Below, piece after piece: positions 7,138 to 42,997 of a stretch of 64,000 nt of DNA. The stretch spans positions 4,198-68,197 of the forward strand of contig DCTX01000078.1 of NCBI GenBank assembly GCA_002329325.1. Reading direction: 5' to 3'. The notes beneath the pieces are model-generated. The model saw only the letters and a program-made list of their open reading frames with translations, did not search any database and was not told the DNA's origin. Numbering within the stretch: the stretch's first letter is position 1; each line of letters starts with the position of its first letter. Position numbers and translations under genes: made by a program. This DNA comes from Anaerolineales bacterium UBA1429. Lineage in GTDB: Bacteria; Chloroflexota; Anaerolineae; UBA1429.

Positions 7138-8334
7138 ATGAAGCCGCTATCCAGGAGTGTCACCGGTATTGATCGGTCGCCGATCCGTTTCATACTCGAT
7201 CGCGCTGCCGCTTATCCGGGAGCTATTCACCTGGAGATCGGACAACCCGATTTCGCCGTTCCGGCCCATGTGATGGAGGCCGTCGTCAATGTGACGCGCC
7301 ACGAGTATACCGGCTACACGGCCAACGCGGGCATGTTGGCGCTGCGCGAGGCCATCGTGGTCAAGCTGGCCCGCGAGAACGATATGCGCGTGACGCCCGA
7401 GAACATCATCGTCACCGTGGGCGCCATGCATGCCGTGTACGCCACCATGATGACCTTGCTGAACCCTGGCGACGAGATCCTGCTGCCCGATCCGGGCTAT
7501 GGCAATTTCAACATGGCGGCCAGGCTGTGCCAGGCCACGCCCGTGTTCTACCCCACCGTGGCGGAACGCAGCTTTGAGCCCGATCTGGATGTCCTGGAGA
7601 CCCTGGTCACCGAGCGCACCAAAGTCCTGTTCATCAACAGCCCGTCCAACCCGACGGGCGCTGTTTTTTCCCGGGCGATGATGCGCGCCTGCCTCGATTT
7701 CTGCCGCAGGCACGACCTCTATCTGGTCTCCGATGAGACCTACGACCGGCTGATCTATGAGGGCGAGCACGTGAGCCCGGCCCAATGGGACGACGAAGGC
7801 CGCGTGGTCACCATCCTGACCACCTCCAAGACCTACGCCATGACGGGCTGGCGCGTGGGCTATGCCGTAGCGAGCAAGCCGATCATCTCGGCCATGACCA
7901 AGATCCAGGAGCCGATGGTCTCTTGCGTCAACACGGTGGCGCAGCATGGCGCCATCGCGGCGCTGTTGGGCCCCCAGGATTGCGTCGAGGCCATGCGCGC
8001 CGAGTACCGCCGCCGCCGCGATATCGCCGTCGAGCTGGCCCTGGAGAACGAGCTATCGGTCTCCTACCCCCACGGCGCCTTCTATATGCTGGTGGACATC
8101 TCCGCCCAGCCCAAGGACTCGGTCGCTTTCTGCTGCGACCTGCTGGATGCCGAGAATGTGGCGGCGGCCCCCGGCCTGGCCTTTGGCGAGCGCTGCGACC
8201 GGTATGTGCGCGTCTCGCTGTGCGCCAAGGAAGAGGCGATTCGCGAGGGGCTGCCCCGCCTGGCTCGCTACCTGCAGCGCGCGGCCGAGGGACAGACGGT
8301 GACGGAGACCCTCTCCGCCCAGGCTGCCAGCTAG
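7138..8334 (+). CDS. Pyridoxal-phosphate-dependent aminotransferase, class I/II (aspartate-aminotransferase-like)
   Basis: 398 aa with INSPSNPTGAVFS and the TSKTYAMTGWRVGY PLP-lysine motif. Confidence 0.85.
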   Translation: MKPLSRSVTGIDRSPIRFILDRAAAYPGAIHLEIGQPDFAVPAHVMEAVVNVTRHEYTGYTANAGMLALREAIVVKLARENDMRVTPENIIVTVGAMHAVYATMMTLLNPGDEILLPDPGYGNFNMAARLCQATPVFYPTVAERSFEPDLDVLETLVTERTKVLFINSPSNPTGAVFSRAMMRACLDFCRRHDLYLVSDETYDRLIYEGEHVSPAQWDDEGRVVTILTTSKTYAMTGWRVGYAVASKPIISAMTKIQEPMVSCVNTVAQHGAIAALLGPQDCVEAMRAEYRRRRDIAVELALENELSVSYPHGAFYMLVDISAQPKDSVAFCCDLLDAENVAAAPGLAFGERCDRYVRVSLCAKEEAIREGLPRLARYLQRAAEGQTVTETLSAQAAS

Positions 8335-37701: not shown

Positions 37702-40700
37702 ATGGCTTTCCGTGCAATGTACGGCGAGTTCCCACTGATCAGCAACAAGATCCAGATCCCCCAGCGCGCTCCCACCATGCTGCGGCGCGAGCGTCTGGTA
37801 GGGTTTCTGCATAGCAACATCAACCACAAGTTGGTGCTCGTCTCCGCCGGCGCTGGCTATGGCAAGACCGCGCTCCTGGTGGACTATGCCCACGACGCCG
37901 AGCTCCCCGTCTGCTGGTATAGCCTGGATGCCGGCGATAACCATGCCCTGACCTTTGTCGAGTACCTGGTCGCCTCGATCCAGCGGCGCTTTCCTGATTT
38001 CGGCGAGAGCGTCCTTCGCGCGCTGCACTCCTTCCGCGGCCAGGCTGAGGATGTCGAGCCGTTCATCCGCCTGCTGATCGCCGAGATCGAGGAAAAGATC
38101 AGCGGCTACTTTGCCATCGTGCTGGATGACTATCACGAGGTGCTGGAGAGCGAGCCCGTCAATGCCCTGGTGGACGGGCTCCTGCGCTATCTACCCGAGC
38201 ACTGCCACCTGGTCATCTCCTCCCGAGCCATTCCGCGTCGCCTGACCCTCACCCGGCTGGCCGCCCGCGAGGAGATCGTGGGCCTGGGCGTGCGCCAGCT
38301 CAAGTTCACCCGCGACGAGATCCGCCAGGTGCTGGCCCTGCGGGGCATCACCGATGTGGACCCCCAGCGCCTCGATGCCCTGACGGCCCGGTCGGAGGGC
38401 TGGATCACCGCCATCCTGCTGGCTGCCCAGACCCGCTGGAACGAGACGATCGAGGAGATCGTCAACCTATCCGGCTCGCTGGACAATATCTTTGACTATC
38501 TGGCCCAGGAGGTGCTCTCTCAGCAGACTCGCGAGATGCAAGAGTTCTTGCTGGGCAGCTCCGTTCTGGAGGAGATGAGCGCTCCGCTCTGCGATTCCCT
38601 CCTGGGTATCCGCAATTCGGCCCAGATACTGCGCAGCCTGACGGAGCAAGGCCTGTTCACCTTTGAGATCAACAGCTCGGCGGGCTGGTATCAGTATCAC
38701 CAGCTCTTCCGCGAGTTCCTGGTGAACAAGCTCGAGACCGAGCGCCCCGAGGACTACCGCCAGTTGTGCCTCGGAGAGGCGCGCCTCATGGCAAACCAGG
38801 GGCGCTGGCCGTGGGCCATCCAGGGATTCCTCACCGCCCAGGCTCACGATCGCGCTGCCGATGCTCTGGAGCTCGTCGCGCAAGACTATTTCGATGCCGG
38901 GCGCCGCGACGAGGTGCAGGCGTGGATCGATGCCCTGCCCGAGCCGATTCTGCGCGAGCACCCCCGCCTGATGCTGCTGCGGGCCAAGATCAGCACCGAA
39001 AAGGGCGCTTACGAGCAGGCAGAGAGCCTGCTGGAGCCGACCTATGAGATTTACGCCCAACGGGGCAGCGGGCCCGGCCTGGCCCAGGTATTGGTGCAGC
39101 AGGCCATCCTCAACCGCATTCAGGAGCACATCCCCGAGGCCATGGCGGCCTGCCAGCGCGTGTTTGAGACCATCGAGGAGAGGGAGGATCCCACCTCCTT
39201 TGTGCGGGCGCACCAGAACCTCGGCATCTGCTATCACATGCTGGGGAACGTAGAGCAGGGCGTCCAGGAGATGCGGTGCGCCCTGGAGCTGGCCGAGGCC
39301 CACGGCGATACCGTGAGCGCAGCCTATCTCGCCCACGACATGGGCACCAGCCTGCACCTGCAGGGTGCCATGGAGGATGCGCGGCGCTACCTCCACCGCG
39401 CCCTGATGCATTGGCGGCGCGTGGGCAACCCTGCTGACCTGGCCATGACCCTGCAAGGTCTGGGCGTCATCCACCACCATCAGGCCCAGTATGCCGAAGC
39501 ACAGAATCGCTATGAAGAGAGCATCGAAAAGGCCCGCCAGATCGGCAACAGCCGCCTGGAGGCCTATGCCCTTCTGAACAATGGCGATCTGCAGAAGGAT
39601 CGGGGGAGGCTGGACGAAGCCCTGACGCTGTACAGCGAGGCCCTCGATGTGGCGTCGTCCATCGGGTCGGTGGGCCTGGCGCTGTACGTGCTGGCCTCGA
39701 TGGGCGATGCGTACCGCCTGAAGAAGGACACGCCCCGGGCGTGGCAGGTGCTCACCGAGGCGCTGGATCAGAGCGAGCGCCAGGGCGTTGATGAGCCCAT
39801 TGGCCTGGCGCACCTGGCCTTTGGCGCGCTGGCCGTCCAGGAGCAGCGATCCGAGGAGGCGGCGAGCCATCTGACCGAGGCGGGGGAGCGGCTCGAGCGG
39901 GCCGGCGCCCAGCGGGACCTGGCCCGGGTGTACCTGCAACTGGCCCTGTTGGCCCGGCAGGATAGCGATCCCCAGACACTGCGCGATTCCCTGGAGCGTC
40001 TGGGTGAGTTGGCGGTGCGGCTGGGCACCGACCAGTTCATCGTGGCCGAGGGCCCCAACGCCATTCGTCTGTTGCCCTATATTGCCGAGTGGGATATCCG
40101 GGGGCTGGATGCCGTCCACATTCGGGCGCAGATCGAGGAGCTCTTCCCCGCCGTGGTGATGGAGCCGAGGCTGCGCGTGGTGCGCTCCGATGCCGACCTG
40201 GAGCTGCTGGCGCTGGATGGCAGCCAGGTCATCTACAAGGGCAACATCGTGCGCGACTTCGAGTCCTCGGTGGCGCGCACCATGGCGTTCCTGCTGGCCC
40301 AGTATCCCGCGGGCCTATCCAAAGAGCGAATCAGCGACATGCTGTGGCCCGATAACTCGCAGGCGCGCAGCGAAAGCCTCTTCCACTCGACCATCTACCG
40401 CCTGCGCCGGGCGCTGGACAAGAACGCCATCGTGCAGATGAGCGGCGTCTATCGGCTGAGCCCCAACCTGGAGTATCGCTACGATGTGGCCGAGTTCGAG
40501 CAGCTGGCGCGCCTGGGCCGCGCCCGCGACGAATCGGGCCGCATCGCCCGCATCAGCGCCATCGATCTCTACCGCAACGAGTTCCTGGAGGCGCAGGACT
40601 ATCCCTGGTGCGTCGAGATCCGTTATGCGCTGCAAAACGAGATGATCCGCCTGTTGACCATCGAGGCGGATTTCCTTGCTCTGCACGACAGCCCCGAGGC

Positions 40701-40929
40701 AGCCGAGACGCTCTATCTGCGCGTCTTGGCCCTGGACGAGCTGGACGAACGCGCCCATCGGGGCGTGATGTGGTGCCGGGCCAAGCTGGGCGATGCGCCG
40801 GGGGCCATGCGCCAGTTCCGCGCCTGCAGCCGGGTGATCGAGCAGGATATGGGGGTGCCCCCGCGCCCGGATACGAAACGCATGTTTGAGCTGATCCACC
40901 ATGGCGAGGTACCCCGAGAGCCCTTCTGA
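37702..40929 (+). CDS. MalT-like STAND ATPase with TPR array and C-terminal SARP module (OmpR-type winged helix + BTAD)
   Basis: The N-terminus is collinear with E. coli MalT from memory (SNKIQIPQ..., Walker A SAGAGYGKTALL, WYSLDAGDN, Walker B AIVLDDYH, SEGWITAILLAA). The middle 450 aa or so are TPR-like. The C-terminus ARTMAFLLAQYPAGLSKERISDMLWP...STIYRLRRAL is a winged helix, and ISAIDLYRNEFL...RAHRGVMWCRAKLGDAPGAMRQFR is BTAD. Start is 37702 or 37717. Confidence 0.8.
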   Translation: MAFRAMYGEFPLISNKIQIPQRAPTMLRRERLVGFLHSNINHKLVLVSAGAGYGKTALLVDYAHDAELPVCWYSLDAGDNHALTFVEYLVASIQRRFPDFGESVLRALHSFRGQAEDVEPFIRLLIAEIEEKISGYFAIVLDDYHEVLESEPVNALVDGLLRYLPEHCHLVISSRAIPRRLTLTRLAAREEIVGLGVRQLKFTRDEIRQVLALRGITDVDPQRLDALTARSEGWITAILLAAQTRWNETIEEIVNLSGSLDNIFDYLAQEVLSQQTREMQEFLLGSSVLEEMSAPLCDSLLGIRNSAQILRSLTEQGLFTFEINSSAGWYQYHQLFREFLVNKLETERPEDYRQLCLGEARLMANQGRWPWAIQGFLTAQAHDRAADALELVAQDYFDAGRRDEVQAWIDALPEPILREHPRLMLLRAKISTEKGAYEQAESLLEPTYEIYAQRGSGPGLAQVLVQQAILNRIQEHIPEAMAACQRVFETIEEREDPTSFVRAHQNLGICYHMLGNVEQGVQEMRCALELAEAHGDTVSAAYLAHDMGTSLHLQGAMEDARRYLHRALMHWRRVGNPADLAMTLQGLGVIHHHQAQYAEAQNRYEESIEKARQIGNSRLEAYALLNNGDLQKDRGRLDEALTLYSEALDVASSIGSVGLALYVLASMGDAYRLKKDTPRAWQVLTEALDQSERQGVDEPIGLAHLAFGALAVQEQRSEEAASHLTEAGERLERAGAQRDLARVYLQLALLARQDSDPQTLRDSLERLGELAVRLGTDQFIVAEGPNAIRLLPYIAEWDIRGLDAVHIRAQIEELFPAVVMEPRLRVVRSDADLELLALDGSQVIYKGNIVRDFESSVARTMAFLLAQYPAGLSKERISDMLWPDNSQARSESLFHSTIYRLRRALDKNAIVQMSGVYRLSPNLEYRYDVAEFEQLARLGRARDESGRIARISAIDLYRNEFLEAQDYPWCVEIRYALQNEMIRLLTIEADFLALHDSPEAAETLYLRVLALDELDERAHRGVMWCRAKLGDAPGAMRQFRACSRVIEQDMGVPPRPDTKRMFELIHHGEVPREPF

Positions 40930-40951
40930 TCTCCCAAAAGCCCTTGCGAAC

Positions 40952-40990
40952 AAACGCGCGAATTCTCGACGAATCGCGCGTTTTTCTTTG
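40952..40990 (+). terminator. Intrinsic terminator after the STAND/SARP regulator gene
   Basis: Stem aaacgcgcga / tcgcgcgttt (7 GC-rich bp plus A:T extension) with a 12-nt loop, followed by tttttctttgttt. Confidence 0.55.
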
Positions 40991-41004
40991 TTTCGGGGCC
41001 ATTT

Positions 41005-41037
41005 CGTGAGTGATCCGTGAGTCTCACTGTGTATTCT
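41005..41037 (+). promoter_or_regulatory. Two direct CGTGAGT heptads at 11-bp periodicity upstream of a -10-like TATTCT (activator-dependent promoter candidate)
   Basis: CGTGAGT at 41005-41011 and again at 41016-41022. TATTCT at 41032-41037 lies 9 nt after the second heptad. There is no good -35. The second heptad is also part of the palindrome GTGAGTCTCAC (41017-41027). Confidence 0.4.
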
Positions 41038-41070
41038 TACGGCGAACCTTGAGCTACAGGAGGGAGCCGA

Positions 41071-41247
41071 ATGAAGCGACTGCATCGGAACGTTGTCTAC
41101 ACCGTGCTCTCCGTGGCAGCGCTGGCAGTGGCCGGGAGCGCGCCCATCCCCTGGAGCGGCTCGGGCGGCGGTGGCGGTAGCATCATCGACATGATTCTAT
41201 ATTTCCTTCGGGTGTTTGGCCCACGGATTACTAGGGGGCAATCATGA
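41071..41247 (+). CDS. Micro-ORF A (58 aa), signal-peptide-like N-terminus, APIPWS motif, Gly-run, hydrophobic/cationic tail
   Basis: Not in the ORF track (too short). ATG 41071 lies 5 nt after AGGAGGGA. Translation: MKRLHRNVVYTVLSVAALAVAGSAPIPWSGSGGGGGSIIDMILYFLRVFGPRITRGQS. It is a paralogue of micro-ORF B. Confidence 0.45.
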   Translation: MKRLHRNVVYTVLSVAALAVAGSAPIPWSGSGGGGGSIIDMILYFLRVFGPRITRGQS

Positions 41248-41336
41248 AGAAGGCATTCGTTCACATCGTTTACGTGGTTCTCTCGGCGGCGGCATTGGTC
41301 GTAGCGGCCGGCGCGCCCATCCCCTGGAGCACCTGA
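41244..41336 (+). CDS. Micro-ORF B (30 aa), signal-peptide-like, ends PIPWST
   Basis: ATG 41244 overlaps the TGA of ORF A (ATGA) and follows AGGGGG. Translation: MKKAFVHIVYVVLSAAALVVAAGAPIPWST. It is 18/30 identical to the N-terminus of ORF A and shares a perfect 20-nt repeat with it. Confidence 0.45.
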   Translation: MKKAFVHIVYVVLSAAALVVAAGAPIPWST

Positions 41337-41377
41337 GTTAGGCGCATAGACGCAGAACCAGAGCCCAGCAAGCTATC

Positions 41378-41962
41378 ATGATTCTGGTTCTGGCAGTTGC
41401 CCTTTCGATTTTGATTGCCCTGTTACGGGGAGGCAGCCTAAATAGGCTCGCTCAAGTACCTTTCAAACTTGGTTGGTTGGCCTTTATCGCCATAGGCCTG
41501 CAGGTAGTGGCCGTCTACGTCCAGCAAGTCGAGGGCCTGGCAGCGTGGCTGTTCGTGCTCTCCTACGCGGTCCTGATCGGCCTGATCGTGATCAACTACC
41601 GGGTGGCAGGCGTGCTGGTCATCGGGGTGGGGCTGGGCCTCAATGCCCTGGTGACGGCGCTCAACGGCGGCTACATGCCGGTGACACCGGAGGCGGTAGA
41701 ACGAGCCGGGCTCACCCACCTGGTGAGCGAGATGGAGGCGGGCGCGCGAGTGTTGGGCGCCAAAGACATCCTTCTGGCCCGCGCCGATACGCAGCTCTGG
41801 TTCCTCGGCGACATATTCGTGCTCAAAGGCCCCTGGCCAACCGTATTCAGCATCGGGGATGTGCTTCTGGTCATCGGCATCCTGATCTTTTTCCAGCAAG
41901 CGATGCGACCGGGCGCTTCTGATAAGGCGATTCGCCAGCAGACGCCGGACATCCTCGAGTAG
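41378..41962 (+). CDS. Polytopic membrane protein, DUF5317-like
   Basis: 194 aa with about 5 TM segments. ALNGGYMPVTPEAVERAG and FSIGDVLLVIGILIFF match my recollection of DUF5317, which I have not verified. Confidence 0.6.
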   Translation: MILVLAVALSILIALLRGGSLNRLAQVPFKLGWLAFIAIGLQVVAVYVQQVEGLAAWLFVLSYAVLIGLIVINYRVAGVLVIGVGLGLNALVTALNGGYMPVTPEAVERAGLTHLVSEMEAGARVLGAKDILLARADTQLWFLGDIFVLKGPWPTVFSIGDVLLVIGILIFFQQAMRPGASDKAIRQQTPDILE

Positions 41963-42016
41963 CTCCCTTTTTCACAACTTTGACAATCACGCTCTGTTAG
42001 CGATGGAGATGACAGC

Positions 42017-42241
42017 ATGCGACACGAAAACATCCAAGCCCTCATCGGTACCGCGATCGTGGATGCCGAATTCCGGCAGCACCTGCTGGAGGACGCGTCT
42101 GCCGTCATCGGCGATTTTGGGCTCACGCCCGAAGAGGCGAACGCCATCCTGTCCATCAAGGCGACCACGTTCCAGGGCTTTGCCAGCCAAGTGCATGCCT
42201 GGATCACCAGTCGCAGCAGCGTTCCCGTGCTGTATTACTGA
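42017..42241 (+). CDS. 74-aa NHLP/Nif11-leader-like protein (possible RiPP-precursor-like or Os1348-type NHLP-clan protein)
   Basis: ATG 42017 follows GGAGA. NIQALIGTAIVDAEFRQHLLEDASAVIGDFGLTPEEANAIL matches the helix pattern L..A..D..FR..LL.D...a...fgLt.eE recalled for NHLP/Nif11-type leaders. GC3-rich codons. Confidence 0.5.
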   Translation: MRHENIQALIGTAIVDAEFRQHLLEDASAVIGDFGLTPEEANAILSIKATTFQGFASQVHAWITSRSSVPVLYY

Positions 42242-42286: not shown

Positions 42287-42324
42287 GCGCGTAGCACCCC
42301 CCCTTGCTGCGCGCCCTTTTCTTT
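42287..42324 (+). terminator. Intrinsic terminator closing the micro-ORF/DUF5317/NHLP-like unit
   Basis: 10-bp stem gcgcgtagca / tgctgcgcgc (one G:U) with an 8-nt C-rich loop, followed by ccttttcttt. Confidence 0.55.
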
Positions 42325-42385
42325 GCCTCGGGGCCGCCTGAACAGGCGGCTCGCTCTCGCTGCAGCCCCGGGTGGAGGCGAGCCC

Positions 42386-42997
42386 ATGGACGATGCACAG
42401 CTTCTTCCCGCCTGGGCGCCCCGCGTGCCCCAGGCCCTGATCCGCAGGCTCTACGAGACCGACGCCCAGGGCATCTATGACGAGGAGCTCCTGGATGAGG
42501 TCGGCTATGCGTTGCTGGCCAGGTGCCAGAGCTTTATCGAGGCCAACGAGGCCCGGGCAGGCCGCGTGCGCTGCCCCCGCTGCAGCGCCGAGATCACCCG
42601 TACCTGGAAGGAGCAGGAGATCCTGCGCTGCGACTGCGGCTGGGCTCTGCCCTGGCGCGATTACTTTGCCACCATCCAGCACGCGCAGCTCAGCGGCGCC
42701 GAGCCCGTCCTCGAGCAGTTCCGCGCCTATGTGGCGGGCTTTCCCCTGGCCCGCACCCCGGGCGAGCGCATGATCGCCATCGATCGCCTGATCCACGGCT
42801 TTCACTGGTATCTCAAGATCAACAGCCCCACACGCCCTGTGGCCGTCAATCTGATCGAGGGCCGTATGCGTCGGGTGATTGCTTTTCTCGACCGGCTGAC
42901 GTACAGTGGCCAGAGTACTCCTGGCCTGCGAGAGAACTATGACCAGTGGGACCAACTGCTGGCCGTGCACCCCGAATGGTACCCCGGGCGAAAGTAG
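42386..42997 (+). CDS. Hypothetical protein with CPRC...CDC zinc-ribbon-like motif
   Basis: Start moved to MDDAQ (ATG 42386) after GGAGGCG. RVRCPRCSAEITRTWKEQEILRCDCGW. No family recognised. Confidence 0.55.
   Translation: MDDAQLLPAWAPRVPQALIRRLYETDAQGIYDEELLDEVGYALLARCQSFIEANEARAGRVRCPRCSAEITRTWKEQEILRCDCGWALPWRDYFATIQHAQLSGAEPVLEQFRAYVAGFPLARTPGERMIAIDRLIHGFHWYLKINSPTRPVAVNLIEGRMRRVIAFLDRLTYSGQSTPGLRENYDQWDQLLAVHPEWYPGRK

What the first reader, a model, noticed from the sequence alone, without database searches (positions are those of the whole stretch)
41005..41037. SARP-style direct heptad repeats (CGTGAGT x2, 11-bp period) at the position of a missing -35, directly downstream of a SARP-domain regulator gene
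Seen in the sequence: CGTGAGT at 41005-41011 and 41016-41022, centre-to-centre 11 bp. Nine nt later comes TATTCT (41032-41037). A strong RBS and ATG follow about 35 nt downstream. There is no TTGACA-like -35.

Established knowledge: SARP activators (ActII-ORF4, DnrI, AfsR) bind direct heptameric repeats spaced one helical turn (11 bp) apart. These repeats overlap or replace the -35, and the proximal repeat lies about 8 bp from the -10.

Inference: the C-terminal winged-helix+BTAD module of the adjacent protein is the natural candidate binder. That would make the micro-ORF operon its direct target.

Caveat: the second heptad is embedded in the palindrome GTGAGTCTCAC (41017-41027), so a dimeric operator is an alternative reading. 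A 7-mer repeating at one fixed offset within about 140 bp has a chance probability on the order of 1 percent.
Basis: partly seen in the sequence, partly recalled or inferred. Interest (0 to 1): 0.6.

Follow-up and report, generated by a model that had tools for sequence, protein, structure and literature searches.

The report
Conserved SARP-type activator box, peptide-operon promoter
Two CGTGAGT repeats one DNA turn apart, just upstream of a -10 box, are almost certainly the docking site through which the neighbouring large regulator switches on a small-peptide operon; the same site and layout recur in dozens of uncultured Chloroflexota and, linked to related regulators, in Firmicutes.

Summary
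CGTGAGT sits at 41005-41011 and 41016-41022, and TATTCT follows 9 nt later. On its own this is not beyond chance, but comparison with other genomes makes it very strong.

- **Conservation.** In 16 of 17 orthologous Anaerolineae loci (regulator 40-87% identical), only the two heptads and a TAnnnT -10 are conserved, and the spacing is fixed. The 17th joins through a contig overlap.
- **Palindrome.** The palindrome GTGAGTCTCAC is not conserved.
- **The regulator's C-terminal module.** The last 265 residues model with pLDDT 90. Foldseek matches only the AfsR SARP domain and EmbR, at TM 0.70-0.79.
- **Independent scan.** A scan of 185,579 species genomes that started from the DNA pattern gave 51 hits. 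Of these, 25 were in Chloroflexota, 19 at the same peptide/DUF5317/NHLP operon. Another 20 were in Firmicutes; wherever enough flanking DNA was held, most lay beside REC-wHTH-BTAD regulators with the same recognition helix (H-[S/N]-T-x-Y-R-L). A 10-bp-period control gave 10 unlinked hits.
- **Transcripts.** In an ortholog, metatranscriptome contigs from 10 runs start 24 nt or more after the -10. None covers the box.
- **Geometry.** The layout matches the AfsR afs box.

Binding itself was not tested. I read this as a new variant of a known kind.

The parts
37702..40929 (+). Regulator gene of about 1075 aa. It has a MalT-like STAND NTPase, a MalT-type TPR region and a C-terminal winged helix plus BTAD (SARP module).
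   Evidence: TPR_MalT scores 52.9 bits against a cut-off of 45. The NCBIfam MalT model gives 275.9 bits over residues 35-560, below its cut-off. BTAD gives 50.5 bits. The start at ATG 37702 is inferred from where the orthologs begin to align.
40132..40926 (+). C-terminal 265 residues: an OmpR-type winged helix followed by BTAD. This is the proposed DNA-binding and RNAP-contacting module.
   Evidence: The AF2 model has pLDDT 90.2. The top six Foldseek hits are the AfsR SARP domain (8k60, 8hvr) and EmbR (2fez, 2ff4), TM 0.70-0.79. The profile match to AfsR has E 2.8e-15. The block SLFHSTIYRLRRAL aligns to AfsR recognition helix alpha3.
40952..40996 (+). Intrinsic-terminator-like hairpin of the regulator gene (AAACGCGCGA ... 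TCGCGCGTTT) followed by a T-rich run.
   Evidence: (I2: 10-nt arms, 100% complementary, 12 nt between the arms). Hairpin plus T-run is also visible after the regulator gene in L001, L002, L005, L006, L007, L009, L011 and L014.
41005..41011 (+). Distal heptad CGTGAGT. It overlaps the position where a -35 would lie.
   Evidence: (D9).
41016..41022 (+). Proximal heptad CGTGAGT, in the spacer between the -35 position and the -10.
41005..41026 (+). 22-bp box made of two 11-bp direct-repeat units. About 8 positions of each unit are conserved and 3 are variable.
   Evidence: Information profile of 17 anchored loci. The layout matches the afs box as described in PMC10936776.
41032..41037 (+). -10 hexamer TATTCT.
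   Evidence: TAnnnT is conserved at a fixed 9-nt distance from the proximal heptad in 15 of the 16 other loci, and at 10 nt in L016.
41043..41045 (+). Predicted transcription start. This is an inference, not an observation.
   Evidence: It follows from the usual 6-8 nt distance after a -10. In ortholog L009, RNA contigs begin 24 nt or more after the -10 and never upstream of it.
41059..41066 (+). Shine-Dalgarno sequence GGAGGGAG of micro-ORF A.
41071..41247 (+). Micro-ORF A, 58 aa.
   Evidence: It belongs to a conserved peptide family (MKKAYFxVVYVVLTAAALVLASGAPxx[FWY]SG[TS]GGG) present in 1-5 tandem copies in the orthologous loci.
41244..41336 (+). Micro-ORF B, 30 aa, a paralogue of A.
   Evidence: (D1).
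41378..41962 (+). DUF5317 membrane protein, the third gene of the target operon.
   Evidence: PF17248, 107 bits. It is conserved downstream in the orthologous loci.
42017..42241 (+). Os1348-family NHLP-clan protein of 74 aa, the last conserved gene of the operon.
   Evidence: NF038399, 53 bits against a cut-off of 40. It is conserved in the loci. In L009 it lies on the same RNA contig as the peptide and DUF5317 genes (X24, 1243 nt).

Best explanation
The 22-bp element at 41005-41026 is a SARP-type activator box. It consists of two 11-bp units, each starting with CGTGAGT. Together with the -10 TATTCT at 41032-41037 it forms the activator-dependent promoter of the operon that encodes the micro-ORFs, DUF5317 and the NHLP-like protein. 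The promoter has no usable -35.

Proposed mechanism:
1. Two C-terminal winged-helix+BTAD modules of the STAND regulator encoded immediately upstream sit side by side on the same face of the DNA, one per heptad.
2. The distal module takes the place of the -35 contact.
3. The proximal module lies 8-9 bp from the -10 and contacts RNA polymerase. This is what the AfsR SARP domain does at the afs box.
4. By analogy with MalT and AfsR, the N-terminal NTPase and the TPR region gate this step through ligand- and ATP-dependent relief of inhibition or oligomerisation.

Shown here: the site and its geometry, its conservation, the fold and homology of the module, the genetic linkage, and transcription that starts downstream of the -10 in an ortholog.

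Inferred: physical binding, activation rather than repression, the identity of the signal, and the exact TSS.
For: **1. Footprint in loci found through the protein.** 21 orthologous loci were retrieved. In 16 of the 17 that reach past the stop codon, YGTGAGT-N4-YGTGAGT lies downstream of the regulator gene. The 17th, L011, is joined to its site on L033 by a 63-nt contig overlap. In the anchored alignment only the two heptads and TAt..Tg are conserved, and the flanks carry no information. The distance from proximal heptad to -10 is 9 nt in 16 loci and 10 nt in one. The distances to the stop codon and to the start codon vary widely.

**2. One site per locus.** Each locus and the 64-kb window hold exactly one site.

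**3. Scan that started from the pattern.** The 11-bp-period pattern, scanned over 185,579 species genomes, gave 51 hits.
- 25 were in Chloroflexota, and 19 of those lie at the peptide/DUF5317/NHLP operon. All but L042 have the regulator gene directly upstream.
- 4 were in Clostridia, with a REC-wHTH-BTAD regulator gene ending 15-95 nt upstream.
- 16 were in Bacilli. There the site precedes an operon of a 7TMR-DISM kinase plus a REC-wHTH-BTAD regulator. That regulator was seen in 5 of the 7 loci that extend far enough; none was detected in L090 or L174.
- A 10-bp-period version of the pattern gave 10 hits. None was in Chloroflexota and none was near a SARP homolog.

**4. The module is SARP.** The AfsR residues that contact bases, T88 and R92, align with the invariant S86 and R90 of this family.

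**5. A shared recognition helix.** All proteins linked to the motif, in three lineages, share H-[S/N]-T-x-Y-R-L-[R/K]-[R/K]. An unlinked REC-SARP paralogue has LNTAVYQL instead.

**6. Transcripts.** In ortholog L009, RNA contigs from 10 metatranscriptome runs of several studies start at 7381-7433. The -10 ends at 7357 and the box lies at 7325-7346. Depth reaches 50-150 just downstream and is zero over the box, the terminator and the 3' end of the regulator gene.

**7. Geometry.** The afs box is 22 bp long, made of two 11-bp direct repeats with the first 8 bp of each contacted. It is centred at -29.5, and its downstream site lies 8 bp from the -10. With +1 at 41044-41045, the box here is centred at -28.5 or -29.5.
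Against: - No binding or expression experiment exists for any member of this family.
- The TSS was not measured in the window's organism; no RNA run holds its sequence.
- The RNA evidence comes from assembled contigs of an ortholog whose regulator is 48% identical. It bounds the 5' end but does not map it.
- Direct 7-bp repeats with an 11-bp period that replace a -35 are also typical of PhoB/OmpR-type response regulators, so the site alone does not name its binder.
- One peptide operon, L042, carries the box with no regulator gene in the 2.9 kb upstream.
- In some Chloroflexota the same box precedes rpoN or a small LuxR-type gene with no SARP gene nearby.
- The heptads vary (GTCAGT in L020 and L004) without a change in the recognition helix.
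- The module lies at the C-terminus, an arrangement for which no characterised SARP exists.
Confidence: 0.78

Rival explanations
1. The box is a real tandem winged-helix site, but it is bound by another OmpR/PhoB-family protein encoded elsewhere, for example a response regulator. On this view the adjacent STAND regulator is linked to the operon for another reason.
For: The layout equals that of pho-box-type class II sites: 7-bp direct repeats, a 4-bp T-rich spacer, and replacement of the -35 (general knowledge). The same box occurs with no adjacent SARP gene at rpoN in L066, L097 and L173, at a LuxR-type gene in L058 and L074, and at the peptide operon of L042.
Against: The site is linked to a wHTH-BTAD gene in three lineages whose regulators have different input domains: STAND-TPR in Chloroflexota and REC in Clostridia and Bacilli. 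All of these proteins share one recognition helix. No response-regulator gene is conserved next to the Chloroflexota operon. Sites with no neighbouring regulator gene are what a regulator acting in trans would produce.
Confidence: 0.1
2. The functional element is the palindrome GTGAGTCTCAC (41017-41027), acting as the operator of a dimeric repressor. On this view the upstream heptad is incidental.
For: The palindrome exists in the window and in the two closest relatives that keep it, L002 and L005.
Against: It is already lost in L001, whose regulator is 78% identical (CTTAC), and in all more distant loci. Both direct heptads persist down to 33-40% identity. The promoter has no usable -35 that a repressor would need to occlude.
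Confidence: 0.03
3. The repeats belong to a transcribed 5' leader, as an RNA element or attenuator, or they are the -35-like element of an alternative sigma factor. On either view they are not an activator site.
For: The TSS was not mapped in this organism. Many orthologs have conserved hairpin-like sequences just upstream, which are terminators.
Against: In L009, RNA contigs from 10 runs never include the box or the -10, although depth just downstream is high. Rfam finds nothing at E up to 1. Two equal copies in direct orientation, one of them in the spacer between -35 and -10, do not fit sigma recognition.
Confidence: 0.04
4. The repeat is a chance occurrence with no function.
For: Exact 7-mers at offset 11 occur 6 times in the window against about 4 expected.
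Against: The conservation, the fixed spacing, the 28.9-bit PWM score, and the pattern-first scan with its control.
Confidence: 0.01

Closest known systems
AfsR SARP domain at the afsS promoter (afs box), Streptomyces coelicolor; PDB 8HVR, 8K60, 8JKE
   Same: The wHTH+BTAD fold is the same (TM 0.74-0.79). Both sites are a 22-bp box of two 11-bp direct repeats, each with about 8 conserved bp, and the upstream unit overlaps the -35 position. The downstream unit lies 8-9 bp from the -10, and the box centre falls near -29. Both proteins are STAND proteins with an NTPase and TPR.
   Different: The domain order is inverted. Here it runs NTPase-TPR-SARP with a MalT-type NTPase; AfsR runs SARP-NOD-TPR. 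The repeat sequence is GTGAGT-type. The host phylum is Chloroflexota, and the target is a micro-peptide/DUF5317/NHLP operon, not afsS. No phosphorylation partner is evident.
SARP-LAL regulators such as PimR (Streptomyces natalensis), and small SARPs such as ActII-ORF4 and DnrI
   Same: They bind heptameric direct repeats separated by 4-nt spacers, with two or three repeats per site. Here L010 has three repeats. PimR also combines a SARP module with a LAL/MalT-type ATPase.
   Different: In PimR the SARP module is N-terminal, and the repeats do not overlap the -35. All of these proteins are actinomycete regulators situated in antibiotic gene clusters.
MalT (E. coli) and LAL-family regulators
   Same: The N-terminal 530 residues are collinear with MalT, and a TPR_MalT sensor region is present. 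These are activators that bind asymmetric boxes arranged as direct repeats (general knowledge).
   Different: The C-terminal LuxR/GerE helix-turn-helix is replaced by a wHTH+BTAD module.
PhoB/OmpR-type class II sites (pho box)
   Same: 7-bp direct repeats with a 4-bp spacer, one helical turn apart, replace the -35 and are read by tandem winged helices.
   Different: No receiver domain is present in the Chloroflexota regulator. The BTAD is present. The box lies closer to the -10 than a pho box does, as recalled from general knowledge.

Membership tests
SARP (wHTH + BTAD transcriptional activators) | An OmpR-type winged-helix DNA-binding domain | tested here: met
   Pfam Trans_reg_C is only weak (E 0.0033, 17.9 bits against a cut-off of 26.2). 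The family profile aligns to AfsR from residue 60 through helix alpha3. The AF2 model (pLDDT 90) superposes on the AfsR SARP domain and on EmbR over 242-257 columns, TM 0.70-0.79.
SARP (wHTH + BTAD transcriptional activators) | A bacterial transcriptional activator domain (BTAD) directly after the winged helix | tested here: met
   PF03704 scores 50.5 bits against a cut-off of 22.1, over residues 951-1087.
SARP (wHTH + BTAD transcriptional activators) | The SARP module lies at the N-terminus of the protein, as in all characterised members | tested here: not met
   The module occupies the last 250 or so residues, after the NTPase and TPR region.
SARP (wHTH + BTAD transcriptional activators) | The target site consists of heptameric direct repeats with an 11-bp period that overlap the -35, and the proximal repeat lies about 8 bp from the -10 | tested here: met
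   A site with this geometry is present and conserved next to the gene. The distance is 9 nt from the heptad and 8 nt from the 8-bp conserved core.
SARP (wHTH + BTAD transcriptional activators) | The protein binds these repeats and activates transcription | not testable with these tools
   This needs EMSA or footprinting and in vitro transcription or a reporter assay.
SARP (wHTH + BTAD transcriptional activators) | An actinomycete regulator of secondary metabolism (the historical definition) | tested here: not met
   All relatives are Anaerolineae/Chloroflexota MAGs. The target operon encodes micro-peptides, DUF5317 and an NHLP-clan protein, with no recognisable biosynthetic enzymes.
MalT / LAL regulators | A MalT-type STAND NTPase plus a TPR-like sensor region | tested here: met
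   NF003420 gives 275.9 bits over residues 35-560, below its equivalog cut-off of 537. TPR_MalT gives 52.9 bits against a cut-off of 45.
MalT / LAL regulators | A C-terminal LuxR/GerE helix-turn-helix | tested here: not met
   There is no GerE hit. The C-terminus is wHTH+BTAD.
PhoB/OmpR response regulators | An N-terminal receiver (REC) domain | tested here: not met
   The window protein has no Response_reg hit. The motif-linked relatives in Firmicutes do have REC.

The most novel reading that the evidence does not exclude
The box may be the output node of a peptide-sensing positive feedback loop. In this reading the micro-peptides it drives have a signal-peptide-like N-terminus and a short conserved mature end, AP-x-x-[FWY]-SG-x-GGG. 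They would be exported or processed, possibly with DUF5317, and sensed by the TPR region of the STAND regulator. The regulator would then oligomerise with ATP and load two SARP modules on the heptads. That would be a quorum-sensing-like circuit built from STAND and SARP parts outside the RRNPP family.

Alongside this, the pairing of the GTGAGT box with the H-[S/N]-T-x-Y-R-L helix would be an old, portable operator-reader pair shared by Chloroflexota and Firmicutes.
Probability: 0.15. Interest if true: 0.85.

Novelty: new variant of a known kind. Interest (0 to 1): 0.6.

Why it matters
SARP activators and their heptad boxes have been studied almost only in actinomycetes as switches of antibiotic clusters. 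Three points go beyond that here.

- **The same promoter architecture in another phylum.** Two 11-bp units sit at about -29 with no -35. The architecture is conserved in uncultured Chloroflexota that are abundant in anaerobic digesters.
- **A new protein arrangement.** The site is read by a module fused to the C-terminus of a MalT-type STAND protein.
- **A shared heptad and helix in Firmicutes.** The same heptad and the same recognition helix recur with receiver-domain SARP proteins there.

This yields a concrete pair of DNA word and reading helix that can be tested, and a single, apparently dedicated target promoter. It also links the regulator to a conserved micro-peptide/DUF5317 operon that is strongly expressed in the digester and bioreactor metatranscriptomes examined and has no known function. 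The regulator and its box are the most direct experimental handle on that operon.

Tried and rejected
- **Own-genome search.** I used the 64-kb window and the public species-genome collection instead.
- **First collection scan.** About 40% of its rows were a chance match inside 16S rRNA (GGTGAGTAACACGTGAGT), so it is not quantitative.
- **Second collection scan.** I mis-specified the pattern with a 3-nt spacer, which gives a 10-bp period. It cost one scan. I report it only as an accidental negative control: 10 hits, none in Chloroflexota, none near a SARP homolog.
- **RNA runs for the window itself.** None exists.
- **RNA contigs laid on other orthologs.** On L003 they were fragmented by five identical tandem peptide genes and gave no 5' boundary. 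L008 and L014 were absent from the runs tried.
- **Other checks that found nothing.** The sigma-70 consensus scan found no promoter. Rfam found nothing. A literature search for DUF5317 returned nothing, and a search for SARP or BTAD in Chloroflexi or Anaerolineae returned nothing relevant.
- **Palindromic-operator reading.** Rejected because the palindrome is not conserved.
- **Autoregulatory second site upstream of the regulator gene.** None was found by regex or by PWM.
- **Covariation between heptad and helix.** There is only one suggestive case. L016 has GTGAGA twice and the helix HSTMHRIR. L020 has GTCAGT with an unchanged helix. This is not usable as evidence.

Full report
**Observation.** CGTGAGT lies at 41005-41011 and again at 41016-41022. 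TATTCT lies at 41032-41037, 9 nt after the second copy. GGAGGGAG lies at 41059-41066 and the ATG at 41071. The second heptad is embedded in GTGAGTCTCAC. No sigma-70-type -35/-10 pair is found in 40600-42100.

Alone, the repeat is weak evidence. Exact 7-mers at offset 11 occur six times in the window, against about four expected. A two-mismatch version of the 18-nt pattern turns up in 26 of 100 shuffles. However, CGTGAGT occurs nowhere else on either strand of the 64 kb.

**Surroundings.** The upstream gene runs to 40929, with its likely start at ATG 37702. It encodes a MalT-like STAND NTPase, a MalT-type TPR region, a weak Trans_reg_C match and a clear BTAD at the extreme C-terminus. It is followed by a perfect 10-bp hairpin and a T-run at 40952-40996. 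The downstream genes therefore need their own promoter within about 75 nt.

The downstream genes are two paralogous micro-ORFs, a DUF5317 membrane protein and an Os1348-family NHLP-clan protein. The genes beyond them are a methyltransferase, Ham1, a CBS-domain protein and mreB, and they are not conserved in synteny with the module.

**Footprint starting from the protein.** A search with the regulator retrieved 21 loci, all from Anaerolineae/Chloroflexota MAGs, 32-87% identical. Seventeen reach beyond the stop codon. In sixteen of them, YGTGAGT-N4-YGTGAGT lies between the regulator gene and a micro-ORF operon. The seventeenth, L011, ends 169 nt after the stop. Its tail overlaps the head of L033, from the same MAG, by 63 identical bases, and L033 carries the box and the operon.

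I anchored the loci on the first heptad. Only cGTGAGTgtTtCGTGAGT and, 9 nt later, TAt..Tg are conserved; the flanks carry no information. The distance from proximal heptad to -10 is 9 nt in sixteen loci and 10 nt in L016. The distances to the regulator's stop codon and to the first start codon vary widely. The box therefore belongs to the downstream promoter.

The palindrome survives only in L002 and L005. It is already broken in L001. L010 has three heptads at 11-bp spacing. Each locus has exactly one site, apart from one likely chance match inside L020.

**Scan starting from the pattern, with a control.** I scanned YGTGAGT-NWTY-YGTGAGT-N9-TAnnnT over one genome for each of 185,579 species. 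It gave 51 hits, and no genome had more than one.

- **Chloroflexota, 25 hits.**
  - Nineteen lie at the peptide/DUF5317/NHLP operon. Eight of these represent genomes not found through the protein, and in seven of the eight the regulator gene is directly upstream. L042 is the exception.
  - Three precede rpoN (L066, L097, L173) and one precedes a small GerE-type gene (L074). L058, found in the first scan, also precedes a GerE-type gene. None of these has a SARP gene nearby.
  - The remaining two, L039 and L040, are unclear.
- **Clostridia, 4 hits.** The site lies 15-95 nt after a REC-wHTH-BTAD regulator gene. In L099 and L162 it precedes a large surface-protein gene, which in L162 carries SpaA and collagen-binding domains.
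- **Paenibacillus, Brevibacillus and Exiguobacterium, 16 hits.** In the Paenibacillus and Brevibacillus loci examined, the site precedes a 7TMR-DISM histidine kinase gene. A REC-wHTH-BTAD regulator gene follows it in 5 of the 7 loci that extend far enough; none was detected in L090 or L174.
- **Other, 6 hits.** These look like chance.

By mistake I had first scanned a version with a 10-bp period. It gave 10 hits, none in Chloroflexota and none near a SARP homolog. That number gives a sense of the chance background.

A weight matrix built from 24 sites that exclude the window scores the window's site at 28.9 bits and the next independent site at 8.6 bits.

**Is the C-terminal module a SARP module?**
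- A profile of 18 orthologous C-termini matches the AfsR SARP domain at E 2.8e-15 and EmbR at 8.5e-5, and matches no other solved structure.
- The AlphaFold model has pLDDT 90.2.
- Its only significant Foldseek hits are AfsR (8k60, 8hvr) and EmbR (2fez, 2ff4), over 242-257 columns at TM 0.70-0.79.
- In the residue alignment, AfsR W74, T88, R92, R94 and K95 correspond to W72, S86, R90, R92 and R93 of the 265-residue piece. PMC10936776 reports T88 and R92 as the base-specific contacts and R94 and K95 as phosphate contacts. W72, S86 and R90 are invariant in the family.

**Reader and word go together.** All proteins linked to the GTGAGT box carry H-[S/N]-T-x-Y-R-L-[R/K]-[R/K] in the recognition helix. 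This holds whether their input domain is STAND-TPR (Chloroflexota) or REC (Clostridia, Bacilli). A second REC-SARP protein in locus L167, not adjacent to a box, has LNTAVYQL. This correlation across three lineages with different input domains is the main argument that the SARP module, and not some other winged-helix protein, reads the box.

**Transcripts.** No RNA run holds the window's sequence. The ortholog L009 (regulator 48% identical) is present in many digester metatranscriptomes. Its box lies at 7325-7346, its -10 at 7352-7357 and its first ATG at 7386. Assembled RNA contigs from ten runs begin at 7381, 7382, 7392, 7394, 7394, 7400, 7407, 7418, 7433 and 7433.

Depth just downstream is 50-150 in several runs. 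Depth over the box, the -10, the terminator and the 3' end of the regulator gene is zero. The two peptide genes of L009 share no 31-mer, so these ends are not breaks caused by repeats in the assembly. One contig of 1243 nt spans the peptide genes, DUF5317 and the NHLP gene.

These data show three things:
- The operon is one transcription unit.
- It is not fed by read-through from the regulator gene.
- Its 5' end lies between the -10 and 24 nt beyond it.

They bound the TSS but do not map it, and they come from a relative.

**Geometry compared with what is known.** The afs box is 22 bp long and consists of two 11-bp direct repeats, of which the first 8 bp are contacted. It is centred at -29.5, and its upstream unit overlaps a poor -35. 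[quoted passage not shown] SARP sites have two or three heptads in classical 11-bp units.

Here the box is 41005-41026. With +1 at 41044 or 41045 it spans -39..-18 or -40..-19, centred at -28.5 or -29.5. Eight positions per unit are conserved. The gap to the -10 is 9 nt from the heptad, or 8 nt from the 8-bp core.

**Mechanism.** I read the element as a class-II-like, sigma-adaptation-type activator site. Two SARP modules bind side by side, the distal one in place of the -35 contact and the proximal one against RNA polymerase. Loading of two modules would be controlled by the NTPase and TPR parts, as in MalT and AfsR.

Shown: the site, its selection, its geometry, the fold, the linkage, and the transcription boundary in an ortholog. 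Inferred: binding, the sign of regulation (supported by the absence of a -35 in all orthologs), and the signal.

**Rivals.**
- Another OmpR/PhoB-type protein could read such a site. I give this 0.1, because of the cross-lineage linkage to SARP genes.
- The palindromic operator, an RNA or sigma element, and chance are each at or below 0.04, for the reasons given above.

**Limits.**
- The first collection scan was truncated and contaminated by a 16S match.
- One scan was wasted on a wrong spacer.
- The N9-TAnnnT part of the pattern was imposed in the collection scans. Constancy of the spacing is therefore independent evidence only in the protein-first set.

**Novelty.** The kind of element is known. 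Earlier notes of this scan report SARP-type boxes in a Thermomicrobiales cluster and in soil actinobacteria; I did not test those claims. What is new here:
- the C-terminal placement of the SARP module on a MalT-type STAND protein;
- the GTGAGT word and its matching helix, shared between Chloroflexota and Firmicutes;
- the target, a widespread and highly expressed micro-peptide/DUF5317/NHLP operon of unknown function.

The library searches found no paper on DUF5317 and nothing relevant on SARP or BTAD in Chloroflexi or Anaerolineae.

Noticed in passing
L025, L090, L111, L124, L126, L152, L156-L159, L167, L168, L170, L172, L174, L176 (Paenibacillus, Brevibacillus, Exiguobacterium): In the nine Paenibacillus/Brevibacillus loci whose sequence I read, TGTGAGT-TTTT-TGTGAGT-N9-TAGnAT, usually with GAAATGA before the -10, lies upstream of a 7TMR-DISM histidine kinase of about 1030 aa; the two Exiguobacterium loci were not examined. 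Where the locus is long enough, a REC-wHTH-BTAD response regulator of about 370 aa follows. This looks like an autoregulated two-component operon that uses the same box. In L090 a 904-aa MalT/LuxR-type regulator lies upstream.
   Followed up: partly
L099, L153, L162, L128 (Clostridium, Hydrogenoanaerobacterium): In L099, L153 and L162 a 373-aa REC-wHTH-BTAD regulator gene ends 15-18 nt before TGTGAGT-N4-TGTGAGT-N9-TATAAT; in L128 a homolog 40% identical over the wHTH-BTAD part ends 95 nt before the box. In L099 and L162 a large surface-protein gene follows the site; in L162 it is 1649 aa with SpaA and collagen-binding domains.
   Followed up: partly
L066, L097, L173 (Anaerolineales/Chloroflexi) and L058, L074: The same box and -10 precede a sigma-54 (rpoN) gene in three genomes, with a conserved TGTAAGATTACA palindrome in the leader. 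In two other genomes they precede an 86-88-aa GerE/LuxR-type gene that sits after an AMP-binding enzyme gene. No SARP gene lies within the loci. These may be targets regulated in trans.
   Followed up: partly
L003:7297-8200: There are five tandem peptide genes with a 174-bp period, four of them identical at protein level. The operon is present in many digester and activated-sludge metatranscriptomes.
   Followed up: partly
L009:6700-8600: In metatranscriptomes the peptide/DUF5317/NHLP operon reaches a contig depth of 10-150, while the regulator gene is at 0-5. The regulator is therefore expressed at a low level and the operon at a high level under digester conditions.
   Followed up: partly
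L069 and L163, the 9 nt between proximal heptad and -10: A third CGTGAG copy starts 10 bp after the second heptad and abuts the -10 (CGTGAG|TATGAT, CGTGAG|TATACT). I could not tell whether this is functional or coincidental.
   Followed up: no
L016:2393-2411 and its regulator: Both heptads read GTGAGA, and the recognition helix reads HSTMHRIR (Y to H, L to I). This is a single possible case of covariation between site and reader.
   Followed up: no
Genome-contig scan, L022 and many others: Bacterial 16S rRNA contains GGTGAGTAACACGTGAGTAA...TA..., which matches the loose heptad pattern. It swamps naive scans for this box.
   Followed up: yes
window 42323-42997: A conserved zinc-ribbon-like protein (CPRC...CDC, HGFHWYLK) with no family match follows the operon. 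It is also present after the operon in L005.
   Followed up: no
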